From the IMG/VR virus record IMGVR_UViG_3300035698_013504, positions 136,904 through 200,903 of that record: DNA of 64,000 nt; one strand, 5' to 3'. Origin of the DNA: a virus. Lineage: Duplodnaviria > Caudoviricetes. Below the pieces are notes generated by a model. The model did no database searches. It was given only the letters and a program-made list of their open reading frames with translations, and was not told the DNA's origin. Of the stretch, positions 30,208-50,518 are shown piece after piece. The translations under genes were made by a program, and so were the position numbers. How positions within the stretch are numbered: the first letter of the stretch is position 1; every line of letters begins with the position of its first letter.

Positions 30208-30208
30208 A

Positions 30209-30958: not shown

Positions 30959-30968
30959 GAGAATACCG

Positions 30969-31340
30969 ATGGCGGGTTACCCAACAGAACTTGAAAGACA
31001 GATTCAGCTACTTTGTGGCGGCAAGGCTCCGGCAGGTGAAGTCACGTCGCAGGACATCAAGATTCCCAAGATGACCGAGCGTATCCTGCACATGGCGCAG
31101 GAAGAGGCACAGTTGCACGGCATGCGGGAGCCGGGGTCTCTGCACGCCCTCAAAGAGAGTATACGACAGACACTGAATCAGCCACTCCGCAGCGTTTCTA
31201 ACGATATTGACGAAGGTAAGCCGATGAACGCTGTGCGGATTGCCGTAGGCGAAGACTTGCTCGGCAAGCTGGCCCTCTACATGTACGCGACGATCAACTT
31301 CGCAGCACAAGAGCCGCCGAACGACTGCGGGGTGTGTTAA
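30969..31340 (+). CDS. Hypothetical protein
   Basis: RBS GGAG. Confidence 0.65.
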   Translation: MAGYPTELERQIQLLCGGKAPAGEVTSQDIKIPKMTERILHMAQEEAQLHGMREPGSLHALKESIRQTLNQPLRSVSNDIDEGKPMNAVRIAVGEDLLGKLALYMYATINFAAQEPPNDCGVC

Positions 31341-31341
31341 A

Positions 31342-33814: not shown

Positions 33815-33839
33815 ACACCTTACGATAAGGAGAAGGACA

Positions 33840-36295: not shown

Positions 36296-37338
36296 ACCAC
36301 AAGGAATTCTTAGGCGTATCGACAGAGGCGCGCCCGTTTATCGTAGCTGAGGCCGGGCACAACCATGAGGGCGACATTGATGTTGCCCGCGAGATGATCT
36401 ACAAGGCAAAAGAGGGCGGAGCTGACGCCATCAAGTTTCAGACAATCATACCGGGTCGACTTGTCTCACCCAGCTTCCCGATAACCGCCGCGTACGCAGC
36501 TGAAATGGCAAGGGCTTCCGCATTCTCCCTTCCGTTTGACAACTTCATTGCCTTAAAGGAAGAGGCAGAGAAGGTCGGCATCCTCTTCTTCTCGACGCCT
36601 TTTGATGTGCCGAGTGCAAAGATGTTGGTTAGTCTTGGCATCCCGGCTTTCAAGATAGGTTCGGGGCAGATCGACCTTTGGCCCATGGTAGATATCGTCG
36701 CGAGGGCGTGTAGGCCGGTGATCCTTTCTACTGGCGCGTCAACAATTGCGGATGTACGTACGGCCATTGGACGTATTCGTGCTGGGTGGGGACGTATGAA
36801 TTGGCAAGGGCAGCTCGTGTTGCTTAACTGCACCTCGATGTATCCCACACCGTCCGAGCACGTCCATCTTAGACGTATCCAGGAGCTACATAGGGTTACG
36901 CGCCTTGTCGGCTTCTCGGACCACACCGAGGGTATACAGGCCTCTGTACTGGCTGCAGTGATGTTTGACACCTTCATGATTGAAAAGCATTTTACGTTGG
37001 ACAAGAACTTCTCCGACTTCTGCGACCATAAGATCTCCGCGACGGCCGAGGACCTTAAAGATATGATCCGGCTGATCATGGAAGGTAAGGCGATGATTGG
37101 GTCGGAGACCCGCCCGGTACTTGACGACGAGAACCAAAGCCTTATCCGCCACTCCGCGTGTGCGGCCAGGGCGCTGCCCGAGGGGCATACCTTGAACCGG
37201 GATGACATTGTGTGGCTTCGGCCTCAGCATGGCGTTAAGCCCGGTGAAGAGCGGCAGATCTTCGGTAAGAACCTTAAGGTAGCTAAGGAAGACGGGGAAA
37301 CCATCAAACTGGATGACGTATGTAGTTCAGTCGAATAA
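36292..37338 (+). CDS. neuB: Nonulosonic acid synthase (NeuB/LegI/PseI family)
   Basis: IVAEAGHNHEG, ADAIKFQT, STPFD, ILSTG, CTSMYP, GFSDHTEG, IEKHFTLDK, C-terminal SAF domain. Confidence 0.92.
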   Translation: MNHKEFLGVSTEARPFIVAEAGHNHEGDIDVAREMIYKAKEGGADAIKFQTIIPGRLVSPSFPITAAYAAEMARASAFSLPFDNFIALKEEAEKVGILFFSTPFDVPSAKMLVSLGIPAFKIGSGQIDLWPMVDIVARACRPVILSTGASTIADVRTAIGRIRAGWGRMNWQGQLVLLNCTSMYPTPSEHVHLRRIQELHRVTRLVGFSDHTEGIQASVLAAVMFDTFMIEKHFTLDKNFSDFCDHKISATAEDLKDMIRLIMEGKAMIGSETRPVLDDENQSLIRHSACAARALPEGHTLNRDDIVWLRPQHGVKPGEERQIFGKNLKVAKEDGETIKLDDVCSSVE

Positions 37339-37352
37339 AGGAGACCGATGCA

Positions 37353-38972
37353 ATGCTGGAACCTTATGTACCCACCAAGAGAGATGTGCTCGATGTTAAC
37401 AGAGCATGCCAGGCCCGCTGCGATTTTTGTTACTACTTCCATAGCGGCGGCTCTGGGTCTTTCGGACATGACCCGAATTGGGTTATGCCTCTTCAAGGCG
37501 CTATCAACAAGTTGAACCGTATGAAAGAGATCGGGTGCGAGTTTGCCGACTTTACAGGCGGTGAGCCCACTCTCTATAAGGCGATGCCAGCGCTGCTTGA
37601 GCATTGCGCGGCCATCGATCTGACACCTTGTATTATCACCAACGGGTTAGCATCCCATGACAAGTTTGGGTCGTACCTGGAAGCCAACCCGAACACGCGG
37701 TTCCTCTTGTCGCTTCACGGCGCGTCTGGAGTAACCCACGACGCGGCGATGGGCGTTGACGGCGCTTTTGCGACCATGCTTTCACTTATGAGGTTCCTAC
37801 TGGACCGTGGTGTGTTCTTTCGTACCAACACGGTGATCACACGCAGGAACTACAAAGAGCTTGAGGATATTGCGAGTATTGCTCGTTGCGCCGGGGCTCG
37901 AATGTCCAACTTCATCTTCTTTCAGCCCTTTCACGGTTGGGATAAGAATCAAAACGACGACGTGCAAGTAGCCCCCGACCTTGTGGGGCCGTACCTTAGC
38001 CGAGCTGTGCATGAGCAGCGCGCCCACAACTACTGGGTACAGATACGGTACTTCCCCTACTGTTGCATCGATGAGGACTGCTGGCAGAACATATGCGGTC
38101 AGACTCAGGTTAGGCTGGACCCCTATGAATGGCTGTATAATCCCCCTTCGATTGATATGGAGTTCTCTCTTCGTAAGTGTCGCGAGAAGGCCCGTGACCG
38201 TTACGGTAAGGGTAATGATGTCTGTGACGCTTGTCAGATACGCGCTGTCTGTGGCGGCAACTACGAGACACGTACGAACATGTATGGTACGGCCGGGTTA
38301 CGGGCTGTGACGGACAGATATACGGAGAACGTCTTTGAGTTCCGCGATGATCTCAAGACGGACATCATCATTCCCTCCTACAAGGCGGCGGCTCTGCCGG
38401 GCATCATAGATGAGGTGGTGCGCACGGCCGTACAGCCCTATCGTATTATCATCCAAGGAGATGAGACACACGCGACCATTAACCGGCAGAGGGGCCTTGA
38501 TGCTTCAGACGCCGATTGTGTTATCATGGTAGATGACGACATCCGAGATCTACCGGAAGGGTGGAACCGAGCCTTTGTTGAAATCCTTCGAGCAAACCCA
38601 CAAGTCTGTGCCGTGTCCGCACGGCTGCTTGATCGTGATGGTCGGGCCGCCCCTAATTCAGCCGACAATTTCGATCTGTCCGAATCTCTCGTACGCGTGC
38701 CTCTCATACCTACTGCCCTCTGTGCCTTTAGACGACCTAGCAAGGCTCGCTTTGATCCACGGTATCGTGGAAGCGGGTTCGAAGACTCCGACTTCTTCTT
38801 GCAGCTAGCGGGTGAGTATAACCCCTGTAACGAGATCGCGATTACAAACGATATCCGAGTTATGCACCTACATGAGAAGAAGGAGCAAAGCCGATTTCAT
38901 GACCACAATAAATCTCTCTTTGAAGCCAAGTGGGGTCCCATTCGTAAAATCATGCGAGGACAAGATGCCTAA
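37353..38972 (+). CDS. Radical SAM/SPASM fused to GT2 glycosyltransferase
   Basis: CQARCDFC, TGGEPTL, CDACQIRAVCGG; then DIIIPSY, IMVDDD, GFEDSD. Confidence 0.85.
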   Translation: MLEPYVPTKRDVLDVNRACQARCDFCYYFHSGGSGSFGHDPNWVMPLQGAINKLNRMKEIGCEFADFTGGEPTLYKAMPALLEHCAAIDLTPCIITNGLASHDKFGSYLEANPNTRFLLSLHGASGVTHDAAMGVDGAFATMLSLMRFLLDRGVFFRTNTVITRRNYKELEDIASIARCAGARMSNFIFFQPFHGWDKNQNDDVQVAPDLVGPYLSRAVHEQRAHNYWVQIRYFPYCCIDEDCWQNICGQTQVRLDPYEWLYNPPSIDMEFSLRKCREKARDRYGKGNDVCDACQIRAVCGGNYETRTNMYGTAGLRAVTDRYTENVFEFRDDLKTDIIIPSYKAAALPGIIDEVVRTAVQPYRIIIQGDETHATINRQRGLDASDADCVIMVDDDIRDLPEGWNRAFVEILRANPQVCAVSARLLDRDGRAAPNSADNFDLSESLVRVPLIPTALCAFRRPSKARFDPRYRGSGFEDSDFFLQLAGEYNPCNEIAITNDIRVMHLHEKKEQSRFHDHNKSLFEAKWGPIRKIMRGQDA

Positions 38973-39333
38973 GTACCTCTACCGCAAGATACCGTTTCAT
39001 GCATACCAGGTAGACGTAGACACGGATGTTACGAGTTCCCTCGGTGACGACGTCGCTCACCGGGGGGACTGGATTCTCCAGTACAGGGCTACAGGTTTCA
39101 TGCTTGTCTTGAACGACGAGGAGTTTCAGGCTCACGTGACCCCCAACCCTAAGTCAGTTGATGATAAGGGGTCCGAGTCCGTACGAGCCGCCATTACAGA
39201 GGAGTTCAAGAGGGGCGTTGCCGAGCTACGGACTTTTATGGATCCAGTACGCGCCGCAATAACCACGTCACAGGTACCAACCAATGAGAAACATACGGTC
39301 GCAGATATTCCGCGGTCAGCGGTGGCGGGTTGA
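38965..39333 (+). CDS. Hypothetical protein
   Basis: ATG 38965 within ORF 38812-39333. Confidence 0.6.
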   Translation: MPKYLYRKIPFHAYQVDVDTDVTSSLGDDVAHRGDWILQYRATGFMLVLNDEEFQAHVTPNPKSVDDKGSESVRAAITEEFKRGVAELRTFMDPVRAAITTSQVPTNEKHTVADIPRSAVAG

Positions 39334-39562
39334 GCACGTAAAGAAGCTTAAAGGTGCTGACGGCGACATAGACGACCCGTCGACAACAGGTAAGGTCTTG
39401 CGCCTGAAAGAGGGCCTGCCACCCGTTAGGGAACTGGAGTGCGCGATTCACGAGGGTCTCCACGGGTGCTTCTGGGACCTCGACGAGGCGGCTATCACAC
39501 AGTCCGCTACGGACCTGGCCAGGTGGCTATGGCGACTTGGCTACAGGAAGATACATCAGTAA
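39284..39562 (+). CDS. Small HExxH-motif protein
   Basis: AIHEGLHGCFWDLDE; start uncertain. Confidence 0.55.
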   Translation: MRNIRSQIFRGQRWRVEHVKKLKGADGDIDDPSTTGKVLRLKEGLPPVRELECAIHEGLHGCFWDLDEAAITQSATDLARWLWRLGYRKIHQ

Positions 39563-39585
39563 CGTGCTACAGAAAGGACAACACG

Positions 39586-40416
39586 ATGTCTCACCAGCTT
39601 GAAGAAACAGTTGACTATGAGGACCTCAACCGTGTTGCCATGGTTGTCACGTGTAAGGGTAGACTCACCCACCTGAAGGAAACGATCGAGTCCAAGATGG
39701 ATGTAATGGGCGTCGACCACGTCGTTATCGTGGATTACGATGACCCGAGTGACTCTTTCGGCTGGGCCTGCGAGTTGGATGATCCCCGTATCACGGCGAT
39801 TAAGGTGGAGGACCGCGAGTTCTACCACCATGGTAAGGCTCGCAACATTGGGCTTCGAGTAGCCATTGAACGTCTGAAGGCGAACGCCATACTGCTTACT
39901 GATGCAGATGTACGGTTCCACCCGGCCTTTGTGGATCACTGTACGCGCGTGCTGGTCGGCCACCCCCACGAGATATGCGTGATCGGTAACTGCAAGAACA
40001 AGTTCAGCGGTGGCGCAGGCACCGTATTCTCCTCCGCGCGCCTTGTAGCTGAGGTCCACGGTAATCAGGAGCTGCTTCAAGAGGCTTGGGGCGCCGACGA
40101 CACAGATCTGAAACGTCGTATGGAGCATCACGCTCACGAGACACGCGGTTACCCCCATCCCTGCCCTGAGTTCAACGGCGAGCTTCTGGACGTGATTGGA
40201 CATGGCTCAGGTGATCGTACACGTCACTACGTGGTCAAAGCCATGGGTGAAGGCGAACGCCGTAACACCAAGATTGCCCTTGATTGGCAAAAGGAGCACG
40301 GCTGGATAGCTAACCCCGACGGGTGGGGCCAAGCGATCGGACACATCCTTCTGCCGGGTCATGATGTGCAGAGATACGACAGCCGCTCGTCCACATTCCT
40401 GACTGAATACGCATAG
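39586..40416 (+). CDS. Glycosyltransferase (GT7/galactosyltransferase-like)
   Basis: VTCKGRLTHLKE, IVDYDD, KARNIG, LTDADV, WGADDTD. Confidence 0.8.
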   Translation: MSHQLEETVDYEDLNRVAMVVTCKGRLTHLKETIESKMDVMGVDHVVIVDYDDPSDSFGWACELDDPRITAIKVEDREFYHHGKARNIGLRVAIERLKANAILLTDADVRFHPAFVDHCTRVLVGHPHEICVIGNCKNKFSGGAGTVFSSARLVAEVHGNQELLQEAWGADDTDLKRRMEHHAHETRGYPHPCPEFNGELLDVIGHGSGDRTRHYVVKAMGEGERRNTKIALDWQKEHGWIANPDGWGQAIGHILLPGHDVQRYDSRSSTFLTEYA

Positions 40417-40743: not shown

Positions 40744-40753
40744 TAGATCCCCC

Positions 40754-40824
40754 GGGCGTCGAGGACATGCCCCACATCATGCGGATGACCTCCGCGTGTT
40801 GGTTCTCGGCGCCCACCTTCTTTT
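40754..40824 (+). terminator. Probable terminator ending the glycan cluster
   Basis: GGGCGTCGAGGA/TTCTCGGCGCCC stem followed by ACCTTCTTTT. Confidence 0.55.
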
Positions 40825-40847
40825 ATCGGGCAACGGGCAATAGTATG

Positions 40848-40876
40848 TTGACAATCAGCAACCACCATGCTAAGAT
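40848..40876 (+). promoter_or_regulatory. Sigma70-type promoter of the RNA island
   Basis: TTGACA-N17-TAAGAT with extended TG. Confidence 0.75.
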
Positions 40877-40948
40877 CTGAACTACATGGCGCAAGGCCAT
40901 TGATGGTTCTTTGACAACTTGGAACTACGAGTACACAGTTTCGGCGCG

Positions 40949-40992
40949 CTTCAGACTGGAGGTACTTCCTATTAAGAAATATCCCTCCCGTC
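40949..40992 (+). ncRNA. CUUCAG-N8-UACUUC stem module, copy 1 (short, Y-RNA-like)
   Basis: cttcag actggagg tacttc ...aaat atccctcccgtc; N8 pairs with the downstream segment. Confidence 0.55.
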
Positions 40993-41056
40993 GACTATTG
41001 CCGCCGAATTTCTTACTTGAGCCGCAGGCTAGGCTCACCACTACCGACTACTTCAC

Positions 41057-41428
41057 GGGGGTGAAAGGTATCGACAGGACGACTGAAGTATAGACGGCGT
41101 GCCGGAGTTGACCGAATGGCTCCGTTATCAAATCGGTTACACTTAAATTAAGTGACGAAGTTCCCATGCTCGCCGCTGCATAGCGGCCTCGGCCCAAGCG
41201 AGATTGCCTTGGTAGCTTGACGCTGAGACCATACAAAGGTTGACTGCTGGCAAGACAGCGGACATCTCCGGAAAGACGGGGTGCGGGATGGTCATACCCG
41301 CATACAACTCTGACCAAGGCTGCCTGGATGAGCCTGGTGACGTTTGGCCGAATCGCCTGGCTACGCACGTAGATGTTTATATCGAGGACGTAACTGGACC
41401 GGATTTTCAATGATCCGCACCTCCACCA
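41057..41428 (+). ncRNA. ssrA: tmRNA
   Basis: 5' GGGGGTGAAAGGTATCGAC; 3' CACCTCCACCA; 7-bp acceptor stem with G3-U; tag ORF 41154-41183 DEVPMLAAA*; 372 nt. Confidence 0.93.
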
Positions 41429-41459
41429 CTTTAACACTCAGCACAAAGGAGACCGGCTA

Positions 41460-42074
41460 GTGCCCAGAGACACGTTGTTCTACTACATCAGAAAAGCTGT
41501 GCTCATTCCGCGCGGCGTGCCGGAAGACGTTGCCGACAGGATGCGCAAGTACAAAGGCCGACCCAAGGGCGTGTTGGCCGCAACCACTGACGATCAGGGG
41601 AACCTGACCTTCGGCTTTTCGTTCTGCCACACGTCGCCCATATACCGCTCCCGGGACGCGGACCAGAGCGACCCGGATTTGGCCGCCGAGCTGGACTGTA
41701 TGCGCGGCGACTCGTTCAACAAAGTCATCGGGCGCAATATCGCCCTCGCGCGCGCAGAAAAGTACCGCGATGCCGGGCTGCAGTACATCGATAATCACTG
41801 GCACCTTGTCCGCGGAGAAAAGAAACTCGCCGTTCCGGAGGCGGTGCTAAAGGCGCTTCCGCGTTTCATCGCCCGCTCCCAGCGTTTCTTCTCTGATAAG
41901 AAGACGGACACCCGGTGGGTTAGCGGCCTACGTGTCGAAATCGACGCGGCCGTCGCCGCGACGGAGGCCTATCACGCAGCAAACACGAAGGCGCCGGAAG
42001 AAGATTCGGACGGAGGCACCGCAGACATCGGGAAAGTTGTTAGTGACGCCGCGGCTGTGGCCAAACGCGAGTAA
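41460..42074 (+). CDS. Hypothetical phage protein
   Basis: RBS AAGGAG; GFSFCH...DSFNKVIGRNIALARA. Confidence 0.7.
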   Translation: MPRDTLFYYIRKAVLIPRGVPEDVADRMRKYKGRPKGVLAATTDDQGNLTFGFSFCHTSPIYRSRDADQSDPDLAAELDCMRGDSFNKVIGRNIALARAEKYRDAGLQYIDNHWHLVRGEKKLAVPEAVLKALPRFIARSQRFFSDKKTDTRWVSGLRVEIDAAVAATEAYHAANTKAPEEDSDGGTADIGKVVSDAAAVAKRE

Positions 42075-42095
42075 TACACAACACTTCAGGGTGTA

Positions 42096-42215
42096 CTTCA
42101 GGTAAGGGATACTTCAATCAACTCTGCAGGTTACCGGTTCGAGTCCGGTTGCGTACCTTCGGGGCGCATAGCTCAATCGGTAGAGCGGCAGATCCAAAAG
42201 ACCCTCACCGCTTTT
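42096..42215 (+). ncRNA. YrlA-like RNA with circularly permuted tRNA domain (module copy 2)
   Basis: Order: module 5' strand, anticodon-stem 3' strand TCTGC, variable loop, T arm ACCGG-TTCGAGT-CCGGT, acceptor stem closed by cUUCGg, D arm GCTC...GAGC, GCAGA, module 3' strand. Confidence 0.85.
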
Positions 42216-42240
42216 CGTCACCCTTTTCATTACAAGTTAG

Positions 42241-42384
42241 CATGGCGGCGGTGTGGAAGGACACACCCCATGACAGATGGACGCTGCGGAATAACAGACG
42301 GCAGGCAGCACGTGCCCTAATAAGGTACGGGCGGTCACGGCCGAATACGTGGCACTAGTCGGTTTCGAGTCCGGCACGCCGTGT
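42241..42384 (+). ncRNA. tRNA-like RNA with expanded central domain
   Basis: 7-bp acceptor CATGGCG/CGCCGTG, 6-bp D-like stem, T-like arm with 8-nt loop; four hairpins in place of the anticodon/variable arms. Confidence 0.7.
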
Positions 42385-42427
42385 GTTTTGTCTCTACTGA
42401 TCTTTACGCTTGTTGCCTTAACTTGAC

Positions 42428-42568
42428 GGGGAGTTACTGGATCAGTGTCCGGACACAATTCGGTTTTGAGCCTACGTACGTGGGTGATGCCGTGGAATGC
42501 TTACGCTGTACAGAAGACACTGAGCTCAAAGCGATGCATTTCGGCCAGTCGATACGCTCTCCCCACCA
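42428..42568 (+). ncRNA. CCA-ended structured RNA with acceptor-like stem
   Basis: GGGGAG pairs with CTCCCC followed by A-CCA; nested stems ACTGG/CCAGT and CAGTGTC/GACACTG. Confidence 0.65.
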
Positions 42569-42587
42569 TTTTAGATAGGAGACCCAG

Positions 42588-42893
42588 ATGTCCGAAGTTC
42601 CAGGAAACATTCCCGCACCGGAGGAGCCCGCCTCGCAGGTCTTGGCGCAACGTCGTGCCATAGATGAAGTCCAGGAGGAGGTCCACGTGGATCTATGCGA
42701 GTTACGCAGGCGTCTCGGCCAGGTGCTGCGTGACGAAGGTAAGGAGCTGGTTCCTGACGCTGCGACCGCTGTCGCTGATGCGGTTAAGGAGGAGCAGCTT
42801 GTGCCTCTTGCTAACCACCTACGAGACATGAAGCATAAGTCGGAATCGTTCCGCAATTCCATCCGTAACCTACTCGAGCGCCTTGAGCTGTAA
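42588..42893 (+). CDS. Hypothetical coiled-coil protein
   Basis: RBS AGGAG. Confidence 0.7.
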   Translation: MSEVPGNIPAPEEPASQVLAQRRAIDEVQEEVHVDLCELRRRLGQVLRDEGKELVPDAATAVADAVKEEQLVPLANHLRDMKHKSESFRNSIRNLLERLEL

Positions 42894-42919
42894 CCACAGC
42901 CAGGCATAGGAGAAAGAAG

Positions 42920-43345
42920 ATGGGCTCTACACCAAGCAATAAAGACGGCGGATGTTCTCTCTTACATGACCTTTGGAGAAGGTCTGTAGGTATGGAACCC
43001 AGACCGTCTACGGTGTTGATGCCCGATCTTGCATCTCTGAGGCAGACCGAGTGGTCTGATACGTTCGAGCAGTACATGCGCAACAGACTCGTCTTCGGGG
43101 CCGTCAGGTACGGCCTGGTTGGCGACAAGGGCAAACCCCGGTACGACCGGATCAAGTCGATACGCCAGAGACTTGACGCGTACGAAGAAACGGGGAATGA
43201 TGAACATCTGGTAGACGTCGCGAATATGGCCCAGCTCGAGTTTATCGAGGGGATTCATCCCAACAAGCATTTCGCGTCTATCGATGACGGTGTTCACACA
43301 CCAGTTTGCTCAGGTACTCTTCAGGCACGGGTTACTTCCCTTTAG
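42920..43345 (+). CDS. Conserved phage protein, possible nucleotide pyrophosphohydrolase-like
   Basis: MRNRLVFGAVRYG...EHLVDVAN; the last codons overlap the 5' end of an RNA module. Confidence 0.6.
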   Translation: MGSTPSNKDGGCSLLHDLWRRSVGMEPRPSTVLMPDLASLRQTEWSDTFEQYMRNRLVFGAVRYGLVGDKGKPRYDRIKSIRQRLDAYEETGNDEHLVDVANMAQLEFIEGIHPNKHFASIDDGVHTPVCSGTLQARVTSL

Positions 43346-43438
43346 GAGGGCGAGGTCATGGGTTCGAATCCCATTACCCGACTAATACTCGGGTATAGCT
43401 CAGAGGCAGAGCGCGCTTGTAAACCTGTACCGCTTTTT
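43319..43438 (+). ncRNA. YrlA-like RNA with circularly permuted tRNA domain (module copy 3)
   Basis: GGGCG/CGCTT anticodon stem, AGGTC variable loop, T arm ATGGG-TTCGAAT-CCCAT, perfect 7-bp acceptor TACCCGA/TCGGGTA closed by a loop, D arm GCTC...GAGC. Confidence 0.88.
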
Positions 43439-43480
43439 GGTGCCGAGCATTTTCTTTTGAAGCGGCGGCGGACGTCAGTC

Positions 43481-43579
43481 CAGCGTATGGTGTAACGGTT
43501 AACATTCTGTCGAAACAGTTACTCTCTGACGAGATTGGCTAAAGTAGGCGGGCTACGGGTTCGAATCCCGTTGCGTAGC
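43481..43579 (+). ncRNA. tRNA-like RNA lacking a canonical anticodon arm
   Basis: Acceptor CAGCGTA/TGCGTAG, D arm GTGT-AACGGTTA-ACAT, T arm ACGGG-TTCGAAT-CCCGT; 49 nt with short hairpins between D and T arms. Confidence 0.7.
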
Positions 43580-43609
43580 TGCTTCACATTTGATGGGACG
43601 ATGGTATAC

Positions 43610-43652
43610 CTTCAGCGGTGGGTTACTTCAATTGCTGAAAAAACCCCACTGC
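43610..43652 (+). ncRNA. CUUCAG-N8-UACUUC stem module, copy 4 (short)
   Basis: cttcag cggtgggt tacttc aattgctg aaaaaa ccccactgc. Confidence 0.6.
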
Positions 43653-43710
43653 ATCTATTGGACCTAGTCCCTCCTTATTGTTCTGCCCTGGAGGTTATAC
43701 CACCTCCCTC

Positions 43711-44052
43711 TGTCCTTTAGCGGGGATGGACGTCTAACGTCGCTGGCCAAGCGGCTGTAGACGCTAATCAAATAGGTCTCGCCACCCGGGCGAGTAGGGA
43801 TGTAGCTACCGAAAGCGCGCACCTTGATCTTTGGATATAGGGTGCAATCGATTAGTAGGTGTACGCCATCTTTCTATCATAGGTTCTTAACATGCTGCGG
43901 TACCACAGCTATGCCTGGATCACCGGTACGGACTTCGGTCCGGGGCAGTTCATCTTATTACGTTTGCCGCTGGGGTTCCCTCGTTAAAGTGGCCCGCTGC
44001 GGCGCCGCCCCCTCGGCGCCGTTTCGAAGGGCCTCAGCGGCTCTACAGGACA
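43711..44052 (+). ncRNA. Unknown ~340-nt multidomain structured RNA
   Basis: Closing stem TGTCCTTTAG/CTACAGGACA; nested GATGG/CCATC, CTAATC/GATTAG, CGTCTA/TAGACG, GCACCTT/AGGGTGC, CGGAC-TTCG-GTCCG, CCGCTGGGG/CCTCAGCGG. Confidence 0.65.
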
Positions 44053-44073
44053 TGAATGATGAGGTGTACTAGA

Positions 44074-44125
44074 CTTCAGGTAGGGGCTACTTCTATCCTA
44101 CAAGAAAAATACCCCAACTGACTTT
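44074..44125 (+). ncRNA. CUUCAG-N8-UACUUC stem module, copy 5, in the TROVE leader
   Basis: cttcag gtaggggc tacttc ...aaaaat accccaactg acttttg; ends ~75 nt before the TROVE start. Confidence 0.6.
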
Positions 44126-44195
44126 TGTCAGTCACCTCTCCCATTGTTGGCAGCCCTCTACGGAGCTGCTCTTGAAAGAACAGGGGGAACACACG

Positions 44196-46022
44196 ATGGC
44201 ACGATCGTTCCGCCGTATCTTGCGCGACGGCGCGCGAAAGAACGCGTTACCTTCCAACCGCCCCGATGCCACGGTTAACCGAGCTGGCGGCGTCTCCTTC
44301 GAGATCGCCGACCCGGCTACCAAGCTCATCACCATGACTGGTGGGGCGTTCTTTGGTGAGCCGAGGTTCTATTCAGGTTCCGACTGTGTACCCGTCCGGT
44401 CGTTCGGCGGGGCGTTCGCACCCTTGCAGGCACGTCTGGAGATCGCCAGGGACAAGTCTGTATCGTTCGCACGCTGCGAGGAGCTCGATGACACGGCACA
44501 GGAGATCATCGCAACGATCTTGGCTGTGCTCGATGGCGACACCCCAGAAGATGCGTTGGTTATCGCGGCGTGGCTGCGTAACGACGCAAACATCAGGCTC
44601 ACCCCCCAGGTGATCCTCACGCTTGCCGCCAATCACGAGAATGGCAAACCCTTCGTGCGCAAGTATGCGCCGAAGATCATGCTACGTCCGGATGAGGCGA
44701 AGACGAACCTCCTGTTGCACCGGTTCTTCTTTGGCTCGCGTAACCTGCCGAATAGCCTCAACAAAGCCATCGGTGACGGAGTCGCTCGCTTTGGCGAGTG
44801 GGGACTCATCAAGTATGATACGCCCTCCTTCCCCCGCTGGAAGGATGTGCTTCGTTGGATCAAGCGCCGCAACGGGTGGCCCCTCTCAAGAGGGCTGGCC
44901 CGCTACTTCACCCATGGTGAGGTGGATCGTGACGCTACTCCGATCGCCTATGCTCGCAGCCTCTTGGCTCAGAAGACTACCTTCGACACCGAGACTCGCG
45001 AGTTGATCACGGCCAGCCGTGCGACCTGGGAAGTCGTGATGTCTCAGTTCGGCCCACAGGACAAGACACGGGCCTGGGAGTACCTGGTTTTCGAGAACCT
45101 GTTGGGCTATATGGCCACGATGCGCAACCTGCGTAACATGGCTCAGGCCAACGTCAGCTCCCTGTGCGTCGACGCCGTTTGCAGAAAGCTTGTCAACCCC
45201 GAGGAAGTGGCAACAAGTAGGCAACTGCCTTATCGCTTCCTTGCCGCAAACAATGCCCTCTGGGGTAGCCCCGATCGGTTTGGTGGCAACAGCCGCGATA
45301 ACCGCATGGTGTCCCAGTGGCGCGTTAACCCGGTTGTTGGCGGGGGAGGCCTCTCCGGCTTCCGCGGGCTGAGTAAGTTCACAGATGCTCTCGATGAAGC
45401 CGCGGACATGTCCGTGAAGAACGTGCCTGTGTTGCCGGGCCAGACGGCCGTCCTTGTGGACGAGTCCAGCTCTATGCGTCAGCCGATCTCGGAGAAGTCG
45501 CAGATGCTAGTCTGTGACGCGTCGAATATGCTGGCGGGTATTATCGGGCGTGTCTCGGCCGATACGATCCTGTTGCCGTTCGGTGGTACCGTCGAGCATG
45601 TCCCCTGTCGTCATAGGGATACGGTGATCAGCATCGCAGAGAGGTGCGCGGCGGCCAATGTCGGCCACTCGACGAATACGTACCTCGGTATCCAGTACCT
45701 GATCGACAACGACATCGCGCCCGACCGGATTGTCATTCTGTCGGATGCACAAGCGTGGAACAGCTACAGCCGATCGTCGGGCTCGTTGCCTGACACGGTA
45801 CAGCAATACCGCCGCGGTTCGGCGATTGCAAAGGACACATGGATTCACAGTGTTCACGTCAACGGTTACGGCGACGACCCTATCCCCCCCGGTCCCCGTG
45901 TTAACCTCGTTTCTGGGTGGACGGACAAGATCGTGGACTCCATGCTTCACTGCGAAGGTGGCGTTGAGGGAGAAGAAGCGCTGGCGACCATCGACTACAT
46001 CAGAGCCAGGTGGTGTAATTAG
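44196..46022 (+). CDS. Ro60/TROVE-domain RNA-binding protein with vWA domain
   Basis: NRAGGVSF, FFGEPRFY, RNDANIRLTP, KYD, TWE, YMATMRNLRNM, LPYRF, vWA VDESSSM and LSDAQ. Confidence 0.92.
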   Translation: MARSFRRILRDGARKNALPSNRPDATVNRAGGVSFEIADPATKLITMTGGAFFGEPRFYSGSDCVPVRSFGGAFAPLQARLEIARDKSVSFARCEELDDTAQEIIATILAVLDGDTPEDALVIAAWLRNDANIRLTPQVILTLAANHENGKPFVRKYAPKIMLRPDEAKTNLLLHRFFFGSRNLPNSLNKAIGDGVARFGEWGLIKYDTPSFPRWKDVLRWIKRRNGWPLSRGLARYFTHGEVDRDATPIAYARSLLAQKTTFDTETRELITASRATWEVVMSQFGPQDKTRAWEYLVFENLLGYMATMRNLRNMAQANVSSLCVDAVCRKLVNPEEVATSRQLPYRFLAANNALWGSPDRFGGNSRDNRMVSQWRVNPVVGGGGLSGFRGLSKFTDALDEAADMSVKNVPVLPGQTAVLVDESSSMRQPISEKSQMLVCDASNMLAGIIGRVSADTILLPFGGTVEHVPCRHRDTVISIAERCAAANVGHSTNTYLGIQYLIDNDIAPDRIVILSDAQAWNSYSRSSGSLPDTVQQYRRGSAIAKDTWIHSVHVNGYGDDPIPPGPRVNLVSGWTDKIVDSMLHCEGGVEGEEALATIDYIRARWCN

Positions 46023-46052
46023 ATGTAGCACCACCACAAACAAATACGCAAG

Positions 46053-46089
46053 GAGCTGGTCACACGTTGTGACCAGCTCTTGTTCTTTA
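46053..46089 (+). terminator. Intrinsic terminator after TROVE
   Basis: 12-bp GAGCTGGTCACA/TGTGACCAGCTC stem followed by TTGTTCTTT. Confidence 0.8.
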
Positions 46090-46110
46090 GTCTCGCCTCA
46101 GGAGGGTACG

Positions 46111-47025
46111 ATGACCATCGTGACTCATGGTGGTACGGCCCACGCCGATGAGGTCATGTCGATTGCGCTGCTCGTATTGCGTGATGAGCATGTCCGCGCG
46201 GCGTACCGAAGACAGGCCCTCGATATCAAACGTGTCGCAAACTTCATGGATGACACGATTGCCCCGGGCGACTGGGTGTTGGATGTCGGGCTGATACATG
46301 ATCCCGAACGTTTGCGATTTGACCATCACCAGCAAAGGCCGCCCGTTGATAGCACGTTCAGTTTGCTCGCTAAGCATTTCGGGCTACATGAGACGCTGTC
46401 AACATGCACCTCGTGGTACAACCAGATCGTGTGCGTAGACGTACACGGCCCTATAAAGTACATGGAGAGCCTTGGGTTCTCAGACCCTACGATGGATACA
46501 TTCACCAGTGTGTTCAGCACCAGCATCCTTCAATGGTTTGTCACTCAGTTTGAGCGCCTGCCCATTGTTGGTATTGACTTGGCCGTACCTTGGCTAACCG
46601 AGCGTATCTCTGAGGCCCAGTCGATACGACTACGAGTTGATGAGCTGCTGGACACGGCGTCGGTATTTGGTAACGTAGTTGTCTTCCCGGATGCCGCGAC
46701 ACCTTTCGGCACAGGTTTGGCTATTCGCGAGCTTGTCTCGAGAAGTGATGTCTTTCTTGACATCGCCGTATCTATTCTCCCTGACAGTCGTGACAAAGGC
46801 ATGTGGTCGCTTATGCGGCTAGACGACGACGCAAGGGTAGACATGTTACGCATCGAAGAATTACCCTTTGTGGAGTTCGTACACGCCAACGGCTTTCTTG
46901 CCAAGGTGCGGTGCTCACTTCCTGAGGCTATTCAGCTTGCACAACAAACCATAAGGGAGGACGATGAGGATGTCTGGGAACGAAAGCACGACCGATGGCT
47001 TCAAGGAAAGCCTGGAAGATCTTAA
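46111..47025 (+). CDS. MYG1-family (UPF0160) nuclease/hydrolase
   Basis: VTHGGTAHADE, VLDVG...DP...FDHHQ, FVHANGF. Confidence 0.8.
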   Translation: MTIVTHGGTAHADEVMSIALLVLRDEHVRAAYRRQALDIKRVANFMDDTIAPGDWVLDVGLIHDPERLRFDHHQQRPPVDSTFSLLAKHFGLHETLSTCTSWYNQIVCVDVHGPIKYMESLGFSDPTMDTFTSVFSTSILQWFVTQFERLPIVGIDLAVPWLTERISEAQSIRLRVDELLDTASVFGNVVVFPDAATPFGTGLAIRELVSRSDVFLDIAVSILPDSRDKGMWSLMRLDDDARVDMLRIEELPFVEFVHANGFLAKVRCSLPEAIQLAQQTIREDDEDVWERKHDRWLQGKPGRS

Positions 47026-47835: not shown

Positions 47836-48360
47836 GTGAACGACCACTACATGGTCAAATGGGAAGGTGAAGGAGGGGATACGCACTACGGAACGGTTGA
47901 CGCATATAGTGAAGATGCGCAAGAGTTACGAGAGCGTAAGGTCCTTCTTATCGACGACGCGGTCTTGCATCTGCAGTACGAGGTGCCCGAGGCTAGCGTC
48001 ACAGACATTCCGTTTTCGTGGTCACAGCCCGACGAGTATACTTCATATGTCACCTCCGCGTTTAACGCAGCGGTAGCACGTGCAGCATCGTTGGGTAAAG
48101 GACTGAAACCGGGTAAGCTACTCCGCACACAAGTGGGGGACGGCTATGCTTGGTACATTGTTACGAAGGTAACACGAACGCAGGCAAACATCGAATGGCG
48201 AGGATTCTGCCCAGATCATTGGTATGATCAGGTCCTCGGGGCTGGCGGGTCTTTTGATAGAAGTATTATCGCTAGGCTTGTACAGCAACGTGAGTACGTA
48301 TATAAACATCAACCCCAAACCGAAGCATTTGCCACAAAGGAACAACAAGATGAAGGTTAA
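47836..48360 (+). CDS. Hypothetical protein upstream of Ubl
   Basis: RBS AGGAG; stop overlaps the Ubl start. Confidence 0.7.
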   Translation: MNDHYMVKWEGEGGDTHYGTVDAYSEDAQELRERKVLLIDDAVLHLQYEVPEASVTDIPFSWSQPDEYTSYVTSAFNAAVARAASLGKGLKPGKLLRTQVGDGYAWYIVTKVTRTQANIEWRGFCPDHWYDQVLGAGGSFDRSIIARLVQQREYVYKHQPQTEAFATKEQQDEG

Positions 48361-48637
48361 GATCTTCCCCCTCGCCGCTACGCCCCTGGAAGTTGAGCTC
48401 CCCGACACCATCGAGAACATCTCGGTAAAGCACATCTTCAGCCAGACCGGCACCGGCCGCGTCTTCAACGAGGACGATAACACCATCATGGGCGTTATCC
48501 AGGCTCGCCACGGTTCCTTCGAGAACTACGGCTCCGTTCACGTGAACGGCAACGTCGCCACCCTCGCCACGTCCCTCCGCAACGGCGACAACATCATGAT
48601 CGTCCCGCGCGTCCAGGGCGGCCGTCTGGTCGGCTAA
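48350..48637 (+). CDS. Ubiquitin-like (ThiS/MoaD beta-grasp) protein, 95 aa, GG followed by RLVG
   Basis: MKVKIFP...VHVNG...SLRNGDNIMIVPRVQGG-RLVG; RBS AAGG; strongly biased codon usage. Confidence 0.85.
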   Translation: MKVKIFPLAATPLEVELPDTIENISVKHIFSQTGTGRVFNEDDNTIMGVIQARHGSFENYGSVHVNGNVATLATSLRNGDNIMIVPRVQGGRLVG

Positions 48638-48667
48638 GGCGGCAGTCAATCCGGCAGTTAGACGATG

Positions 48668-48718
48668 GACCGTCACCCACCCACCGCTGCACGAGTGGGT
48701 GGCGGTCTTCGTTGGTTC
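48668..48718 (+). terminator. Attenuating hairpin between Ubl and E2
   Basis: 13-bp GACCGTCACCCAC/GTGGGTGGCGGTC stem followed by TTCGTTGGTT. Confidence 0.6.
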
Positions 48719-48733
48719 GTAATGGAGATTCTC

Positions 48734-50518
48734 ATGGAAGTAAGGTTAGAAGCTAGCGGACTCGCTATGTCCCCGGAATCACTTACCCAGCCGCTCTCCT
48801 TTCTATCGCACCAGGTAGGTAAGCCGGTGCGAGTCGTCGATTGGAATGACAGCATCATCAACGCGGACCTGGTAGACCGAAGTGAGCTTCTGGTCTGCTT
48901 CGTGCCGCCAGAGCGCAGTCGCCAGATGCGCGACCACCTCTACTACGGCACCACAGGTCACCGCGCGCTGGAACCAGCGACCTCATCGCGTCGGTCCGAT
49001 CGGATACGAACCAGCAGCACGTTCTGTAACGCGCTGCTATTGGATACCGGTCAGGTCGTCGAGCAAACGATGTTGTCCGACGTTGTTCAATGCGCGATCC
49101 CGGTCCTGGCCGACTTCTTCGACCACGAGGTCCAAACCGCGCAGACCCCCGAGTTTCTCAGGTCAATTACCCGGGGCATACAGCGATTCTTCCAGACCAA
49201 CACCAGAGACGAGCAGGTCATTTTGGCGCAGGCGCAGGAGAAGTACGAGAACCTGCGTGCCGAGATGTATGAAACAAACCGGACGATCATCCGGGCACGC
49301 GCGATTGTCAACTCGATGCAATTCAGTGAGGAAAGTCTGGTTGACGGCAGGTCGCGTATTGCGGCCAACAGGCTGGCCTCGTTGGTTGACACTGGTGTGT
49401 ACAAACGCATCAGGATCACCGAAGATAACGTCGAAGCCGAGACCGGCCATATCGATATCCTCTGGCAGAACTACGCCATTCCGATGGGCACGTACAAAGT
49501 GTACATCAGTTTGTCTACCGGCCGTCTCACCGTCAGAGCGGTTACGTTGTCGCATAACTCGCCTAACGGGTATACCCATCCGCACCTTAGTAGCGGAGAT
49601 GTCTGTTGGGGTAATCTCAGCGTTGAGGCGAGTAGGGCTCAGACTCGTGGTAACTGGGGTGATGCTTTGATGTATGCCCACGCACTTCTCCAGTCTTACT
49701 ACCCGGACAACCCGTATATCGTCATCGGTCGTTTCAGCTCAGCCGAGGGGGTTCTCCCCAGCGAATTGATGCACGGCCCCGGCGACGAGGATCGGTGCGA
49801 AGGGTGCGATGATCGTAACTCGCCCTACTGTATCTTCAGCTGTGACCACAACGAGGACGGTGAAAGGTTCACGAGTGATGACTGCTGCGATTACGGCAAC
49901 ATCACGTGCTACACGACGTGTGACCACAACGCTGACCACTGCTGCATATCGCCGTGCGACAACTGCGACTACAGCAGCCCGACCGTAGCCGACTGCATGC
50001 GTTGTCAGAATAACCCGCATTTCATGCACAACAACCCGTGTAGGGCCTGTACCGAAGAGTACGTAGACGCCTGCCGCGCCTGCGAGTTCCAATCCCGGGT
50101 CGACGAAGCCGTTAGACGCGGTGTCGAAGACGCCAGACCAACAGAGGAACGTCCAGATGATCCGACAGATTCCGACGGGCCCAGTGACTCCGGCGACTCC
50201 GGCGAAGAAGCTGACCCCGCCAGTGACACCGGCGTCGAAAGCGAAGGAGCCGGAGGAGGAGGAGGACCTGTCCCAAATCGAGGGAACAGTGATCCGGTCC
50301 CTGTCTCAGCCGAAGCCTCCAACGATTCAGACGTCGGCGAAGCAGTCCGCAACCCCGGTGACGAAGCCAGACCCAGTCGTCGTCGGCAAGGTAGTGACGC
50401 CGCCAGCATCAGCGCAGACGTCAACACCGGCAACTCTACCGAAACCGTTTACACCGGCAGCCCCAGCAGCGTCGGCTACCCCAGCGACAGCCCCGTCGGG
50501 AGCGAAGTCGACCGTTAA
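48734..50518 (+). CDS. Prokaryotic E2-like (UBC-fold) protein with coiled coil and Cys-rich region
   Basis: YTHPHLSSGDVCWGN (HP...G.xC; Cys codon 49604-49606); ATG 48734 behind GGAG; about 20-Cys region downstream. Confidence 0.75.
   Translation: MEVRLEASGLAMSPESLTQPLSFLSHQVGKPVRVVDWNDSIINADLVDRSELLVCFVPPERSRQMRDHLYYGTTGHRALEPATSSRRSDRIRTSSTFCNALLLDTGQVVEQTMLSDVVQCAIPVLADFFDHEVQTAQTPEFLRSITRGIQRFFQTNTRDEQVILAQAQEKYENLRAEMYETNRTIIRARAIVNSMQFSEESLVDGRSRIAANRLASLVDTGVYKRIRITEDNVEAETGHIDILWQNYAIPMGTYKVYISLSTGRLTVRAVTLSHNSPNGYTHPHLSSGDVCWGNLSVEASRAQTRGNWGDALMYAHALLQSYYPDNPYIVIGRFSSAEGVLPSELMHGPGDEDRCEGCDDRNSPYCIFSCDHNEDGERFTSDDCCDYGNITCYTTCDHNADHCCISPCDNCDYSSPTVADCMRCQNNPHFMHNNPCRACTEEYVDACRACEFQSRVDEAVRRGVEDARPTEERPDDPTDSDGPSDSGDSGEEADPASDTGVESEGAGGGGGPVPNRGNSDPVPVSAEASNDSDVGEAVRNPGDEARPSRRRQGSDAASISADVNTGNSTETVYTGSPSSVGYPSDSPVGSEVDR

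What the first reader, a model, noticed from the sequence alone, without database searches (positions are those of the whole stretch)
40848..47025. RNA island: Ro60/TROVE with a large set of Y-like RNAs, tRNA mimics, tmRNA and a MYG1 nuclease
Seen: downstream of one sigma70-type promoter lie about ten structured RNA elements but no canonical decoding tRNA, ending in a Ro60 gene followed by a MYG1-family gene. Established: bacterial Ro60 binds Y RNAs, and in Deinococcus Y RNA tethers Ro60 to PNPase; Ro60-YrlA pairs are reported in some phages. Inference: this is a much larger phage RNA-surveillance or decoy system, possibly recruiting MYG1 (a reported 3'-5' RNA exonuclease family) instead of PNPase, or protecting translation from host anticodon nucleases. 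Caveat: a strong terminator (46053-46089) separates TROVE from MYG1.
Basis: partly seen in the sequence, partly recalled or inferred. Interest (0 to 1): 0.88.

Follow-up and report, generated by a model that had tools for sequence, protein, structure and literature searches.

The report
Phage Ro60 with five Y RNAs
A 200-kb salt-lake phage carries, in front of its Ro60 RNA-binding ring protein, a ribosome-rescue tmRNA and five small RNAs that share a newly defined conserved "handle". This is an enlarged, lineage-specific version of the known phage Ro60/Y-RNA system, and the proposed link to the neighbouring MYG1 nuclease gene does not hold up.

Summary
Between a sigma70-like promoter (40848-40876) and a strong terminator (46051-46081) lie:
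- a bona fide tmRNA (Rfam 76.7 bits, tag ending LAAA);
- five copies of one structured RNA module, found nowhere else in the 200.9-kb genome;
- a non-canonical tRNA-like RNA;
- about 0.8 kb of orphan non-coding sequence;
- a Ro60 gene (TROVE plus vWA with an intact MIDAS motif).

A MYG1-family (DHH-fold) gene follows the terminator. The phage has no canonical tRNA.

Only seven RNA elements are well supported, not ten.

The five modules share a handle: stem, CUUCAG loop, 8-bp stem, UACUUC. It covaries strongly: 19 copies from 11 phage contigs, 94% paired, 11 of 12 pairs with double-sided changes. Ten of those contigs hold a Ro60 homologue, and there the copies lie upstream of it on the same strand. 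Two window copies carry a YrlA-type tRNA-like head. These are therefore Y RNAs of a new sequence class.

A tmRNA lies within 7 kb of Ro60 in 6 of 10 relatives. MYG1 co-occurs with this Ro60 family in 0 of 11 relatives, so the nuclease link is not supported.

The scan had already found phage Ro60/Y-RNA/tmRNA modules with other handles on other DNA. Verdict: a new variant of a known kind, of moderate interest.

The parts
40848..40876 (+). sigma70-type promoter-like site (TTGACA, 17 nt, TAAGAT, extended TG)
   Evidence: Consensus scan, 10 of 12 matches. Not significant on its own. It follows a terminator-like hairpin at 40778-40798.
40940..41008 (+). Y-A: short Y-RNA module (handle only)
   Evidence: CM R1, 61.7 bits. 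Fold z-score -3.5. Motif hit.
41057..41428 (+). tmRNA with an encoded ACCA end. The inferred tag ends DEVPMLAAA followed by a stop.
   Evidence: Rfam RF00023, 76.7 bits, gathering score 47. Tag reading frame.
41460..42074 (+). CDS of 204 aa, unknown function (viral hypothetical protein)
   Evidence: RBS and GTG start. Coding score 0.26 bits/codon, like Ro60. No Pfam or PHROG hit. Weak viral clusters in the Atlas.
42089..42223 (+). YrlA-1: Y handle carrying a permuted tRNA-like head (T arm, stem-loop, D arm)
   Evidence: CM R1, 39.4 bits. Rfam YrlA 34.8 bits, full-length alignment, below the gathering score of 69. Fold z-score -3.0.
42240..42385 (+). X1a: non-coding, five-hairpin cloverleaf-like fold with a T-arm-like and an anticodon-loop-like hairpin (speculative tRNA-like RNA)
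   Evidence: Fold z-score -2.3. Negative coding score. No Rfam hit. No relatives.
42428..42568 (+). X1b: non-coding stretch closed by GGGGAG/CUCCCC followed by ACCA (speculative acceptor-like end)
   Evidence: Sequence reading and fold, z-score -0.5, not significant. No Rfam hit.
42588..42893 (+). CDS of 101 aa, unknown function
   Evidence: RBS. Coding score 0.19 bits/codon. No family hit.
42920..43345 (+). CDS of 141 aa, MazG/dNTP-pyrophosphohydrolase-like viral family. Its last 33 nt overlap the 5' strand of YrlA-2.
   Evidence: Coding score 0.11. Atlas feature score 0.95 to viral clusters, structure TM 0.46-0.60.
43313..43444 (+). YrlA-2: Y handle carrying a permuted tRNA-like head
   Evidence: CM R1, 38.1 bits. 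Rfam YrlA 29 bits, head only.
43481..43579 (+). tRNA-like RNA: acceptor, D and T arms present, anticodon arm replaced by about 50 nt. An extending stem spans 43458-43590.
   Evidence: Rfam tRNA 24.2 bits, gathering score 29. ARAGORN finds it only with an intron option. Its T arm is a paralogue of that in YrlA-1 (D3).
43603..43664 (+). Y-D: short Y-RNA module
   Evidence: CM R1, 57.5 bits. Fold z-score -2.2.
43660..44066 (+). X2: about 400 nt of orphan, highly structured non-coding RNA candidate
   Evidence: Fold z-score -2.8, 0 of 100 shuffles as stable. Negative coding score. No Rfam hit. No relatives.
44064..44135 (+). Y-E: short Y-RNA module directly upstream of Ro60
   Evidence: CM R1, 66.8 bits.
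44196..46022 (+). Ro60 (TROVE plus vWA), 608 aa
   Evidence: Pfam TROVE 73.4 bits, vWA_Ro60 25.9 bits. PHROG 850 RNA-binding protein. PDB 9KOP/9L5Y phage phiLo Ro60, E 3.7e-7. MIDAS D422-x-S-x-S, T493 and D517 invariant in 18 homologues.
46051..46091 (+). intrinsic terminator (14-bp stem, T-rich tail)
46111..47025 (+). MYG1/UPF0160-family DHH phosphoesterase, 304 aa. A neighbour, probably not part of the Ro60 system.
   Evidence: Pfam PF03690, 45.7 bits. PDB MYG1 exonuclease, E 3e-6. 850 relatives. DHH motif invariant. AF2 pLDDT 88 and DHH/DHHA1 fold matches. No synteny with Ro60.

Best explanation
This is a phage-borne Ro60/Y-RNA ribonucleoprotein cassette joined to a tmRNA gene.

Inferred transcription: one unit runs from the promoter-like site at 40848 to the terminator at 46051.

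Its products:
1. A tmRNA. It must use host SmpB and adds a tag ending LAAA to stalled chains.
2. Five Y RNAs built on one conserved handle: a 5-bp outer stem, an internal loop of CUUCAG opposite YRNNUWUYG, an 8-bp stem, then UACUUC...GAAA.
3. At least one further tRNA-like RNA.
4. The Ro60 ring protein.

Inferred by analogy with Xenopus, Deinococcus, Salmonella and phage phiLo Ro60: the handle is the Ro60 docking site. The variable head is absent in three copies and is a permuted tRNA-like module in two. The head decides which host factor the particle meets, most likely a 3'-5' exonuclease such as PNPase, as shown for Deinococcus and phiLo. The phage would thereby redirect RNA surveillance or decay during infection.

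The three small proteins encoded between the RNAs, and MYG1 behind the terminator, are neighbours, not demonstrated components.
For: Shown:
- tmRNA above the Rfam gathering score, with a degron-type tag.
- Ro60 with TROVE, vWA and intact MIDAS.
- The motif CTTCAG-N5-GG-N-TACTTC occurs 5 times against 0.44 expected, all on the + strand.
- CM R1 finds exactly these five hits in the whole 200.9-kb genome.
- On a MAFFT alignment of 9 copies, 92.5% of cells pair, against 28-48% when partners are slid. 10 of 12 pairs change on both sides.
- With 19 copies from 11 contigs, 94.3% pair and 11 of 12 pairs covary.
- Hits outside the training set lie just upstream of Ro60 homologues (41-49% identity) on the same strand, in L006, L008, L010, L011, L048 and L128.
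- Two window copies form the basal stem of YrlA-like tRNA heads, which is where Ro60 binds in known YrlA.
- A tmRNA lies within 7 kb of Ro60 in L004, L005, L006, L009, L010 and L048.

From the literature:
- YrlA RNAs lie next to Ro60 in more than 250 bacteria and phages (PMC4201824).
- phiLo Ro60 binds two upstream Yrl RNAs and forms a complex with host PNPase (PMC12135203).
Against: - No RNA data exist, so transcription, RNA ends and Ro60 binding are all inferred (DNA runs only).
- Both YrlA hits are far below the Rfam gathering score (34.8 and 29 against 69).
- The handle sequence differs from every described Ro60-binding helix.
- The single-operon reading rests on one consensus promoter, of a kind that chance supplies at this density.
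- The PNPase partner is pure analogy.
Confidence: 0.8

Rival explanations
1. One reading: the Ro60/Y-RNA particles recruit the phage's own MYG1-family 3'-5' exonuclease in place of host PNPase.
For: MYG1 is the next gene after Ro60, on the same strand. It is a real DHH-family phosphoesterase with intact metal-binding motifs. Terminators leak, so some co-expression is possible.
Against: - A 14-bp terminator separates the two genes.
- MYG1 is absent within 7 kb of Ro60 in 7 relatives and absent from the whole contigs of 4 further TROVE-bearing relatives.
- The MYG1 homologue loci L130 and L132 contain no TROVE. One lies beside CRISPR-Cas genes.
- In L130, MYG1 instead travels with a homologue of the downstream ORF 47836-48360.
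- Structural neighbours include nanoRNases and cyclic or linear dinucleotide phosphodiesterases, so a role in nucleotide-signal or nanoRNA degradation is at least as likely.
Confidence: 0.07
2. Decoy model: the tRNA-like heads and the extra tRNA-like RNAs, displayed on or stabilised by Ro60, soak up host tRNA-directed defence nucleases or tRNA-binding enzymes. This would protect translation during infection.
For: The phage has no decoding tRNA. It nevertheless keeps three to four tRNA-shaped RNAs that lack a usable anticodon arm. Relatives carry Y RNAs whose heads copy a tmRNA hairpin motif. This suggests heads are chosen as mimics of translation RNAs.
Against: No defence or anti-defence gene is specifically linked. 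YrlA heads lack the anticodon loop that anticodon nucleases cut. Three of the five Y RNAs have no head at all. There are no experimental data.
Confidence: 0.1
3. The repeated module is not a Ro60 ligand. It would be RNA punctuation, such as a processing, stabilising or termination signal for a polycistronic RNA precursor, or the binding site of another protein.
For: Each module ends in a U-rich strand after a stem, which looks terminator-like. The modules flank other RNAs (tmRNA, the tRNA-like RNA, X2). CUUCAG and UACUUC are invariant, as a protein or RNase site would be.
Against: - The U-rich strand is enclosed by a covarying outer stem, 5 of 5 pairs with double-sided changes, so it is an internal loop and not a terminator tail.
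- In L004 and L005, three modules stand in tandem with nothing between them.
- The only gene shared by all module-bearing loci is Ro60.
- Two copies are the basal stems of YrlA-type RNAs.
Confidence: 0.08

Closest known systems
Bacterial and phage Ro60 (Rsr) with YrlA/YrlB Y RNAs (Rfam RF02553; Chen et al. 2014, PMC4201824)
   Same: Ro60 gene with Y RNAs encoded next to it on the same strand. Three-helix basal stem. Two RNAs with a permuted tRNA-like head (T arm, stem-loop, D arm) that aligns to the YrlA model.
   Different: - Scores are far below the family threshold (34.8 and 29 against 69).
- The handle sequence (CUUCAG / UACUUC / U-rich 3' loop) is a different, lineage-specific one.
- There are five copies, three of them headless.
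- No rtcBA repair genes are present.
Thermus phage phiLo Ro60 with Yrl1/Yrl2 and host PNPase (PMC12135203; PDB 9KOP, 9L5Y)
   Same: A phage Ro60 with several Y-like RNAs directly upstream. The only solved structures that this Ro60 matches by sequence. Offers a tested precedent for hijacking host PNPase.
   Different: - Only the vWA part aligns (residues 399-596, E 3.7e-7).
- This protein is about 100 aa longer.
- phiLo Yrls are defined by a CGAA bulge, not by this handle.
- No tmRNA linkage is reported there.
tRNA/tmRNA/Ro60 islands of large actinophages (mycobacteriophage cluster C, Streptomyces cluster BE, Arthrobacter phage Atuin)
   Same: Ro60 embedded among translation-related RNA genes, including a tmRNA. 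In Atuin, Ro60 sits inside a 26-tRNA array, with weak R1 hits on both sides of the gene.
   Different: This phage has no decoding tRNA at all. Ro60 identity to Atuin is only 29%. The Y repertoire is larger and has its own handle.
MYG1 / UPF0160 3'-5' RNA exonuclease (PMC6582341) and DHH/DHHA1 nanoRNases and phosphodiesterases (NrnA, PggH, GdpP)
   Same: The neighbour gene has the H-x-G-x-x-H-x-D-E, DVG and DHH motifs and a DHH/DHHA1 two-domain fold.
   Different: It belongs to a short (270-300 aa) prokaryotic and phage subfamily. Only the first 66 of 318 Pfam positions align. The substrate is unknown. There is no conserved link to Ro60.

Membership tests
Ro60 / TROVE (Rsr) | TROVE (HEAT-repeat) domain above the Pfam threshold | tested here: met
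   PF05731, 73.4 bits against a cut-off of 23. Genome scan 52.7 bits.
Ro60 / TROVE (Rsr) | C-terminal vWA domain with a MIDAS motif | tested here: met
   PF25045, 25.9 bits, just under the cut-off of 27.7. D422-x-S424-x-S426, T493 and D517 are invariant across 18 homologues. Aligns to the phiLo Ro60 vWA domain.
Ro60 / TROVE (Rsr) | Binds Y RNA on the ring surface | not testable with these tools
   Only co-location and covariation of the candidate RNAs are available.
YrlA (Rfam RF02553) | Score at or above the gathering threshold of 69 bits | tested here: not met
   34.8 bits (42102-42211) and 29.0 bits (43350-43417).
YrlA (Rfam RF02553) | Permuted tRNA-like head (T arm, then stem-loop, then D arm) on a 5'/3' basal stem, encoded beside Ro60 | tested here: met
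   The alignment to the model shows all three head elements for both copies and the basal stem for copy 1. Both lie 0.8-2.1 kb upstream of Ro60.
Y RNA (generic) | Conserved basal helix with internal loops formed by the RNA's two ends, maintained by covariation | tested here: met
   12 pairs, 94.3% paired, 11 with double-sided changes. Slid controls give 33-46%. An independent MAFFT alignment gives 92.5%.
tmRNA (Rfam RF00023) | Gathering score, tRNA-like domain with ACCA end, and a tag reading frame ending in a degron and a stop | tested here: met
   76.7 bits against 47, full-length model match. The frame ends DEVPMLAAA then stop, and relatives end ALAA, LAAA, MAA or HAA. ARAGORN misses this copy.
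tmRNA (Rfam RF00023) | SmpB partner | tested here: not met
   No SmpB (PF01668) in the phage genome. Host SmpB would be required, as is usual for phage tmRNAs.
tRNA (Rfam RF00005) | Cloverleaf with an anticodon arm, at or above 29 bits, or an ARAGORN call | tested here: not met
   Best is 24.2 bits at 43481-43579, with the anticodon arm replaced by about 50 nt. ARAGORN default finds none in the 200.9 kb.
MYG1 / UPF0160 (PF03690) | Pfam threshold, DHH-type metal-binding motifs and a DHH/DHHA1 fold | tested here: met
   45.7 bits against 22.1, N-terminal 66 positions only. H6, D13, D58, G60 and D71-H72-H73 are invariant in 50 relatives, all PF03690. Foldseek probability 1.0 to PggH, NrnA, GdpP and RecJ.
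MYG1 / UPF0160 (PF03690) | 3'-5' RNA exonuclease activity | not testable with these tools
   Activity is known only for the eukaryotic protein (PMC6582341).

The most novel reading that the evidence does not exclude
The CUUCAG/UACUUC handle is a modular Ro60 docking scaffold. A lineage of jumbo phages uses it to display interchangeable mimics of translation RNAs. In this phage the head is a tRNA-like module. In relatives L009, L039, L048 and L128 it is a row of hairpins copied from the tmRNA pseudoknot region. The mimics would capture or divert host factors (PNPase, tRNA- or tmRNA-binding enzymes, defence nucleases). The orphan 400-nt RNA (X2) and the acceptor-ended RNA (X1b) would be further, undescribed members of this toolkit.
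Probability: 0.15. Interest if true: 0.8.

Novelty: new variant of a known kind. Interest (0 to 1): 0.5.

Why it matters
What Y RNAs do in bacteria and phages is still largely open. Only a few Ro60/Y-RNA pairs have been studied.

This locus gives a cleanly defined Y-RNA handle, supported by covariation. It occurs with no head, with a tRNA-like head and (in relatives) with a tmRNA-like head, all beside one Ro60 family. That makes "what does the head recruit?" directly testable with one protein and a small set of natural RNAs.

It also shows that tmRNA and Ro60/Y-RNA genes travel together in an environmental jumbo-phage lineage. And it removes a tempting but unsupported nuclease partner (MYG1) from the picture.

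Tried and rejected
- Close DNA relatives. Megablast of the locus against 50,697 phage records gave no match. A pattern-based search of IMG/VR with Ro60 peptides found none. Relatives came from the protein search and from a motif scan of IMG/VR. In that scan most of the 118 hits were chance; L039, L048 and L128 carry the family's Ro60, and L125's parent contig carries a TROVE gene.
- Strain-level variation. Contigs from four salt-lake runs were laid on the locus to look for compensatory changes in X1 and X2. The contigs were identical to the window, so they gave no information. No RNA run holds the phage.
- X1, X2 and the tRNA-like RNA. There was no nhmmer similarity in relatives. Permissive Rfam thresholds gave no family for X1 or X2, including tmRNA, RNase P, GOLLD, ROOL and HEARO. 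Low-threshold ARAGORN calls were judged spurious.
- The GTTCTTTG leader motif seen before RNA genes in relatives is not enriched in the window: 3 found, 0.86 expected, 7 of 100 shuffles reach 3.
- Ubl/E1 link. Earlier notes of this scan tie Ro60-like proteins to Ubl/E1 cassettes, and a Ubl-E2-JAB-E1 operon lies 2.3 kb downstream here. ThiF is absent near Ro60 in 7 relatives (gene tables; tblastn) and absent from 4 whole contigs. I did not adopt this link.
- No RtcB, CCA-adding enzyme or SmpB is encoded by the phage.
- I did not run a Ro60-MYG1 complex prediction, because I do not claim that they bind.

Full report
**Source.** The window is bases 136904-200903 of a 200,903-bp IMG/VR phage genome with direct terminal repeats. 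The same sequence occurs in contigs from several salt-lake metagenomes. All of these are DNA runs and identical to the window, so they give neither expression nor variation data.

**What is in the flagged stretch**
- tmRNA: Rfam finds one family above its gathering score in the whole genome, a tmRNA at 41057-41428 (76.7 bits against 47). It has the GGGGG...CCACCA ends. Its reading frame ends DEVPMLAAA followed by a stop. The tmRNAs of relatives end ALAA, LAAA, MAA or HAA, so it looks functional. The phage has no SmpB.
- No tRNA: ARAGORN finds no tRNA or tmRNA in the window or the genome at default settings.
- Ro60: the gene (44196-46022) has TROVE at 73.4 bits and a vWA domain. Its MIDAS residues are invariant in 18 homologues, and it matches the solved phage phiLo Ro60.
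- Terminator: a 14-bp hairpin with a T tail follows at 46051-46081.
- MYG1: a MYG1/UPF0160 gene follows at 46111-47025.
- Promoter: the site at 40848-40876 is the best sigma70-type match in the region. The region as a whole has no more such matches than shuffled sequence.

**Corrections to the observation.** The stretch is not purely RNA.
- ORFs 41460-42074, 42588-42893 and 42920-43345 have ribosome-binding sites. Their codon scores (0.26, 0.19 and 0.11 bits per codon) are in the range of Ro60 (0.24) and MYG1 (0.16).
- The ORFs inside 42149-42663 and 43535-44072 score negative in every frame.
- The 141-aa protein belongs to a viral MazG/dNTP-pyrophosphohydrolase-like family.
- About 2.1 kb remains non-coding: 40744-41459, 42075-42587 and 43346-44195.

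**The repeated module**
- Occurrence: the motif CTTCAG-N5-GG-N-TACTTC occurs five times against 0.44 expected. All copies are on the + strand, at 40949, 42096, 43319, 43610 and 44074. It occurs nowhere else in the genome.
- Shape: each copy folds the same way. There is a 5-bp outer stem, an internal loop (CUUCAG opposite a U-rich nine-mer), an 8-bp stem, then UACUUC...GAAA, then a variable tip.
- Heads: three copies (Y-A, Y-D, Y-E) have only a short loop at the tip. The other two carry a T arm, a stem-loop and a D arm in the permuted order typical of YrlA. These are the two Rfam YrlA hits below the gathering score (34.8 and 29 bits against 69).

**Relatives**
- Ro60 family: this Ro60 has about 60 homologues at 40-49% identity in metagenomes. 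The best match among isolated phages is Arthrobacter phage Atuin at 29%.
- Loci fetched: I fetched seven metagenomic loci. Four IMG/VR contigs bearing the module were recovered through the motif.
- L004 and L005: three tandem headless modules stand directly upstream of Ro60.
- Covariation, independent alignment: a MAFFT alignment of nine short copies gives 92.5% paired cells. Slid controls give 28-48%. 10 of 12 pairs change on both sides.
- Covariance model R1: it was built from that alignment. It finds hits outside the training set upstream of Ro60 in L006, L008, L010, L011, L048 and L128. It also finds both long window copies.
- Specificity: R1 finds exactly five hits in the full 200.9 kb.
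- Covariation, full set: across 19 copies, 94.3% of cells pair and 11 of 12 pairs covary. CUUC and UACUUC are invariant. This alignment is fitted to the model, so it leans towards the structure. The MAFFT result is the independent one.
- Shared gene: the only protein shared by all these loci is Ro60.

**Interpretation.** These features are what defines Y RNAs:
- position upstream of Ro60 on the same strand;
- restriction to that neighbourhood;
- a covarying basal stem with invariant loops;
- use of the same stem as the base of YrlA-type heads.

Phage Ro60 with adjacent Y RNAs is known (PMC4201824). For phage phiLo, Ro60 was shown to bind two upstream Yrl RNAs and to assemble with host PNPase (PMC12135203). 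I therefore read the five modules as Y RNAs of a new sequence class, and the handle as the Ro60 docking site. Binding and the identity of the recruited factor are inferred, not shown.

**tmRNA linkage.** A tmRNA lies within 7 kb of Ro60 in L004, L005, L006, L009, L010 and L048. The pairing therefore recurs in 6 of 10 relatives. In L006, L039, L048 and L128, a tRNA(CAU) follows a short Y RNA.

**Long Y RNAs in relatives.** L009, L039, L048 and L128 also have a long Y RNA. In L039, L048 and L128 its head holds three tandem 4-bp hairpins with GRAAGA loops. The same hairpin occurs in the family's tmRNAs, including the window's at 41267. This suggests that heads are borrowed from translation RNAs.

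**Other RNAs in the window**
- 43481-43579 has acceptor, D and T arms, but its anticodon arm is replaced by about 50 nt (Rfam tRNA 24.2 bits against 29).
- X1a (42240-42385) folds into a five-hairpin cloverleaf-like shape (z-score -2.3).
- X1b (42428-42568) is closed by a 6-bp stem followed by ACCA, but its fold is not significant (z-score -0.5).
- X2 (43660-44066) folds well (z-score -2.8).
- X1a, X1b and X2 have no relative and no family match. They remain unexplained.

**MYG1**
- Identity: the protein is a real member of a large short-MYG1 family. It has 850 relatives, all 50 aligned ones match PF03690, and the DHH motif is invariant. The model is confident (pLDDT 88) and has a DHH/DHHA1 fold.
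- No link to Ro60: it is separated from Ro60 by the terminator. It is absent within 7 kb of Ro60 in seven relatives and absent from the whole contigs of four more. Its own homologues lie in loci without TROVE, one of them next to CRISPR-Cas genes.

**Comparison with earlier notes of this scan.** Other first-stage readers noted the same five-copy module and the 340-nt structured RNA on this stretch. On other DNA, the scan has already described phage Ro60/Y-RNA/tmRNA modules with different handles. It has also described Ro60-like genes joined to Ubl/E1 cassettes. A Ubl-E2-JAB-E1 operon lies 2.3 kb downstream here. ThiF is absent near Ro60 in the relatives I examined, so I treat that as adjacency only.

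**Verdict.** The core interpretation, an expanded phage Ro60/Y-RNA system with tRNA mimics and a tmRNA, is supported. The MYG1 extension is not. This is a new variant of a known kind of system. Its main value is a well-defined new Y-RNA handle with interchangeable heads.

Noticed in passing
L039:101-320, L048:2583-2780, L128:380-578, L009:4111-4337: Relatives carry a long Y RNA. In L039, L048 and L128 its head holds three tandem 4-bp hairpins with GRAAGA loops, spaced 21 nt apart. The same hairpin occurs in the family's tmRNAs, including window 41267. L009's long copy aligns with these, but the regex found no such hairpin in it. This could be a tmRNA-pseudoknot mimic on a Ro60 handle.
   Followed up: partly
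window 48350-52962: A Ubl-E2-JAB-E1 (ThiF) operon lies 2.3 kb downstream of Ro60. Earlier notes of this scan link Ro60-like proteins to such cassettes in other genomes, but ThiF is absent near Ro60 in this family's relatives.
   Followed up: partly
window 29293-40416: A cluster for nonulosonic (sialic-acid-like) sugar synthesis and transfer lies directly upstream. It includes NeuB, a cytidylyltransferase fused to a GT29-like domain, radical SAM enzymes and glycosyltransferases. Relatives L008 and L009 also have a radical SAM enzyme and glycosyltransferases upstream of Ro60.
   Followed up: no
L006:6294-6367, L039:421-499, L048:2867-2943, L128:676-752: In four relatives, a tRNA with anticodon CAU and an encoded CCA end follows the short Y RNA and precedes Ro60. 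The window has only a tRNA-like RNA without a normal anticodon arm at a comparable place.
   Followed up: partly
L010:9594-10421: In one relative, an Apyc1-type (anti-Pycsar) metallo-beta-lactamase-fold gene lies just downstream of Ro60. That is roughly where this phage has its MYG1/DHH phosphoesterase, which hints that the slot holds nucleotide-degrading accessory genes.
   Followed up: no
L132:135-2382: A MYG1-family homologue (41% identity over the N-terminal motifs) lies next to a Cas_NE0113 gene and Cas1/Cas2 genes on a metagenomic contig.
   Followed up: no
L004:4021-6122, L005:3986-6078, L008:11880-14862, L011:11222-14484: PAS-histidine kinase and response-regulator gene pairs lie within a few kb of Ro60 in four related phage contigs. 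This is unusual cargo for phages.
   Followed up: no
window 43313-43345: The last 33 nt of the 141-aa MazG-like CDS overlap the 5' strand (outer stem, CUUCAG, 8-bp stem, UACUUC) of YrlA-2. The structural match of the protein family ends about 10 residues before the stop.
   Followed up: no
L125 (IMG/VR contig of 253 kb), 551-1970: Copies of the handle are interspersed in a 20-tRNA array of a 253-kb phage contig that also encodes a TROVE protein elsewhere. The same Y class therefore also occurs inside classical tRNA islands.
   Followed up: partly
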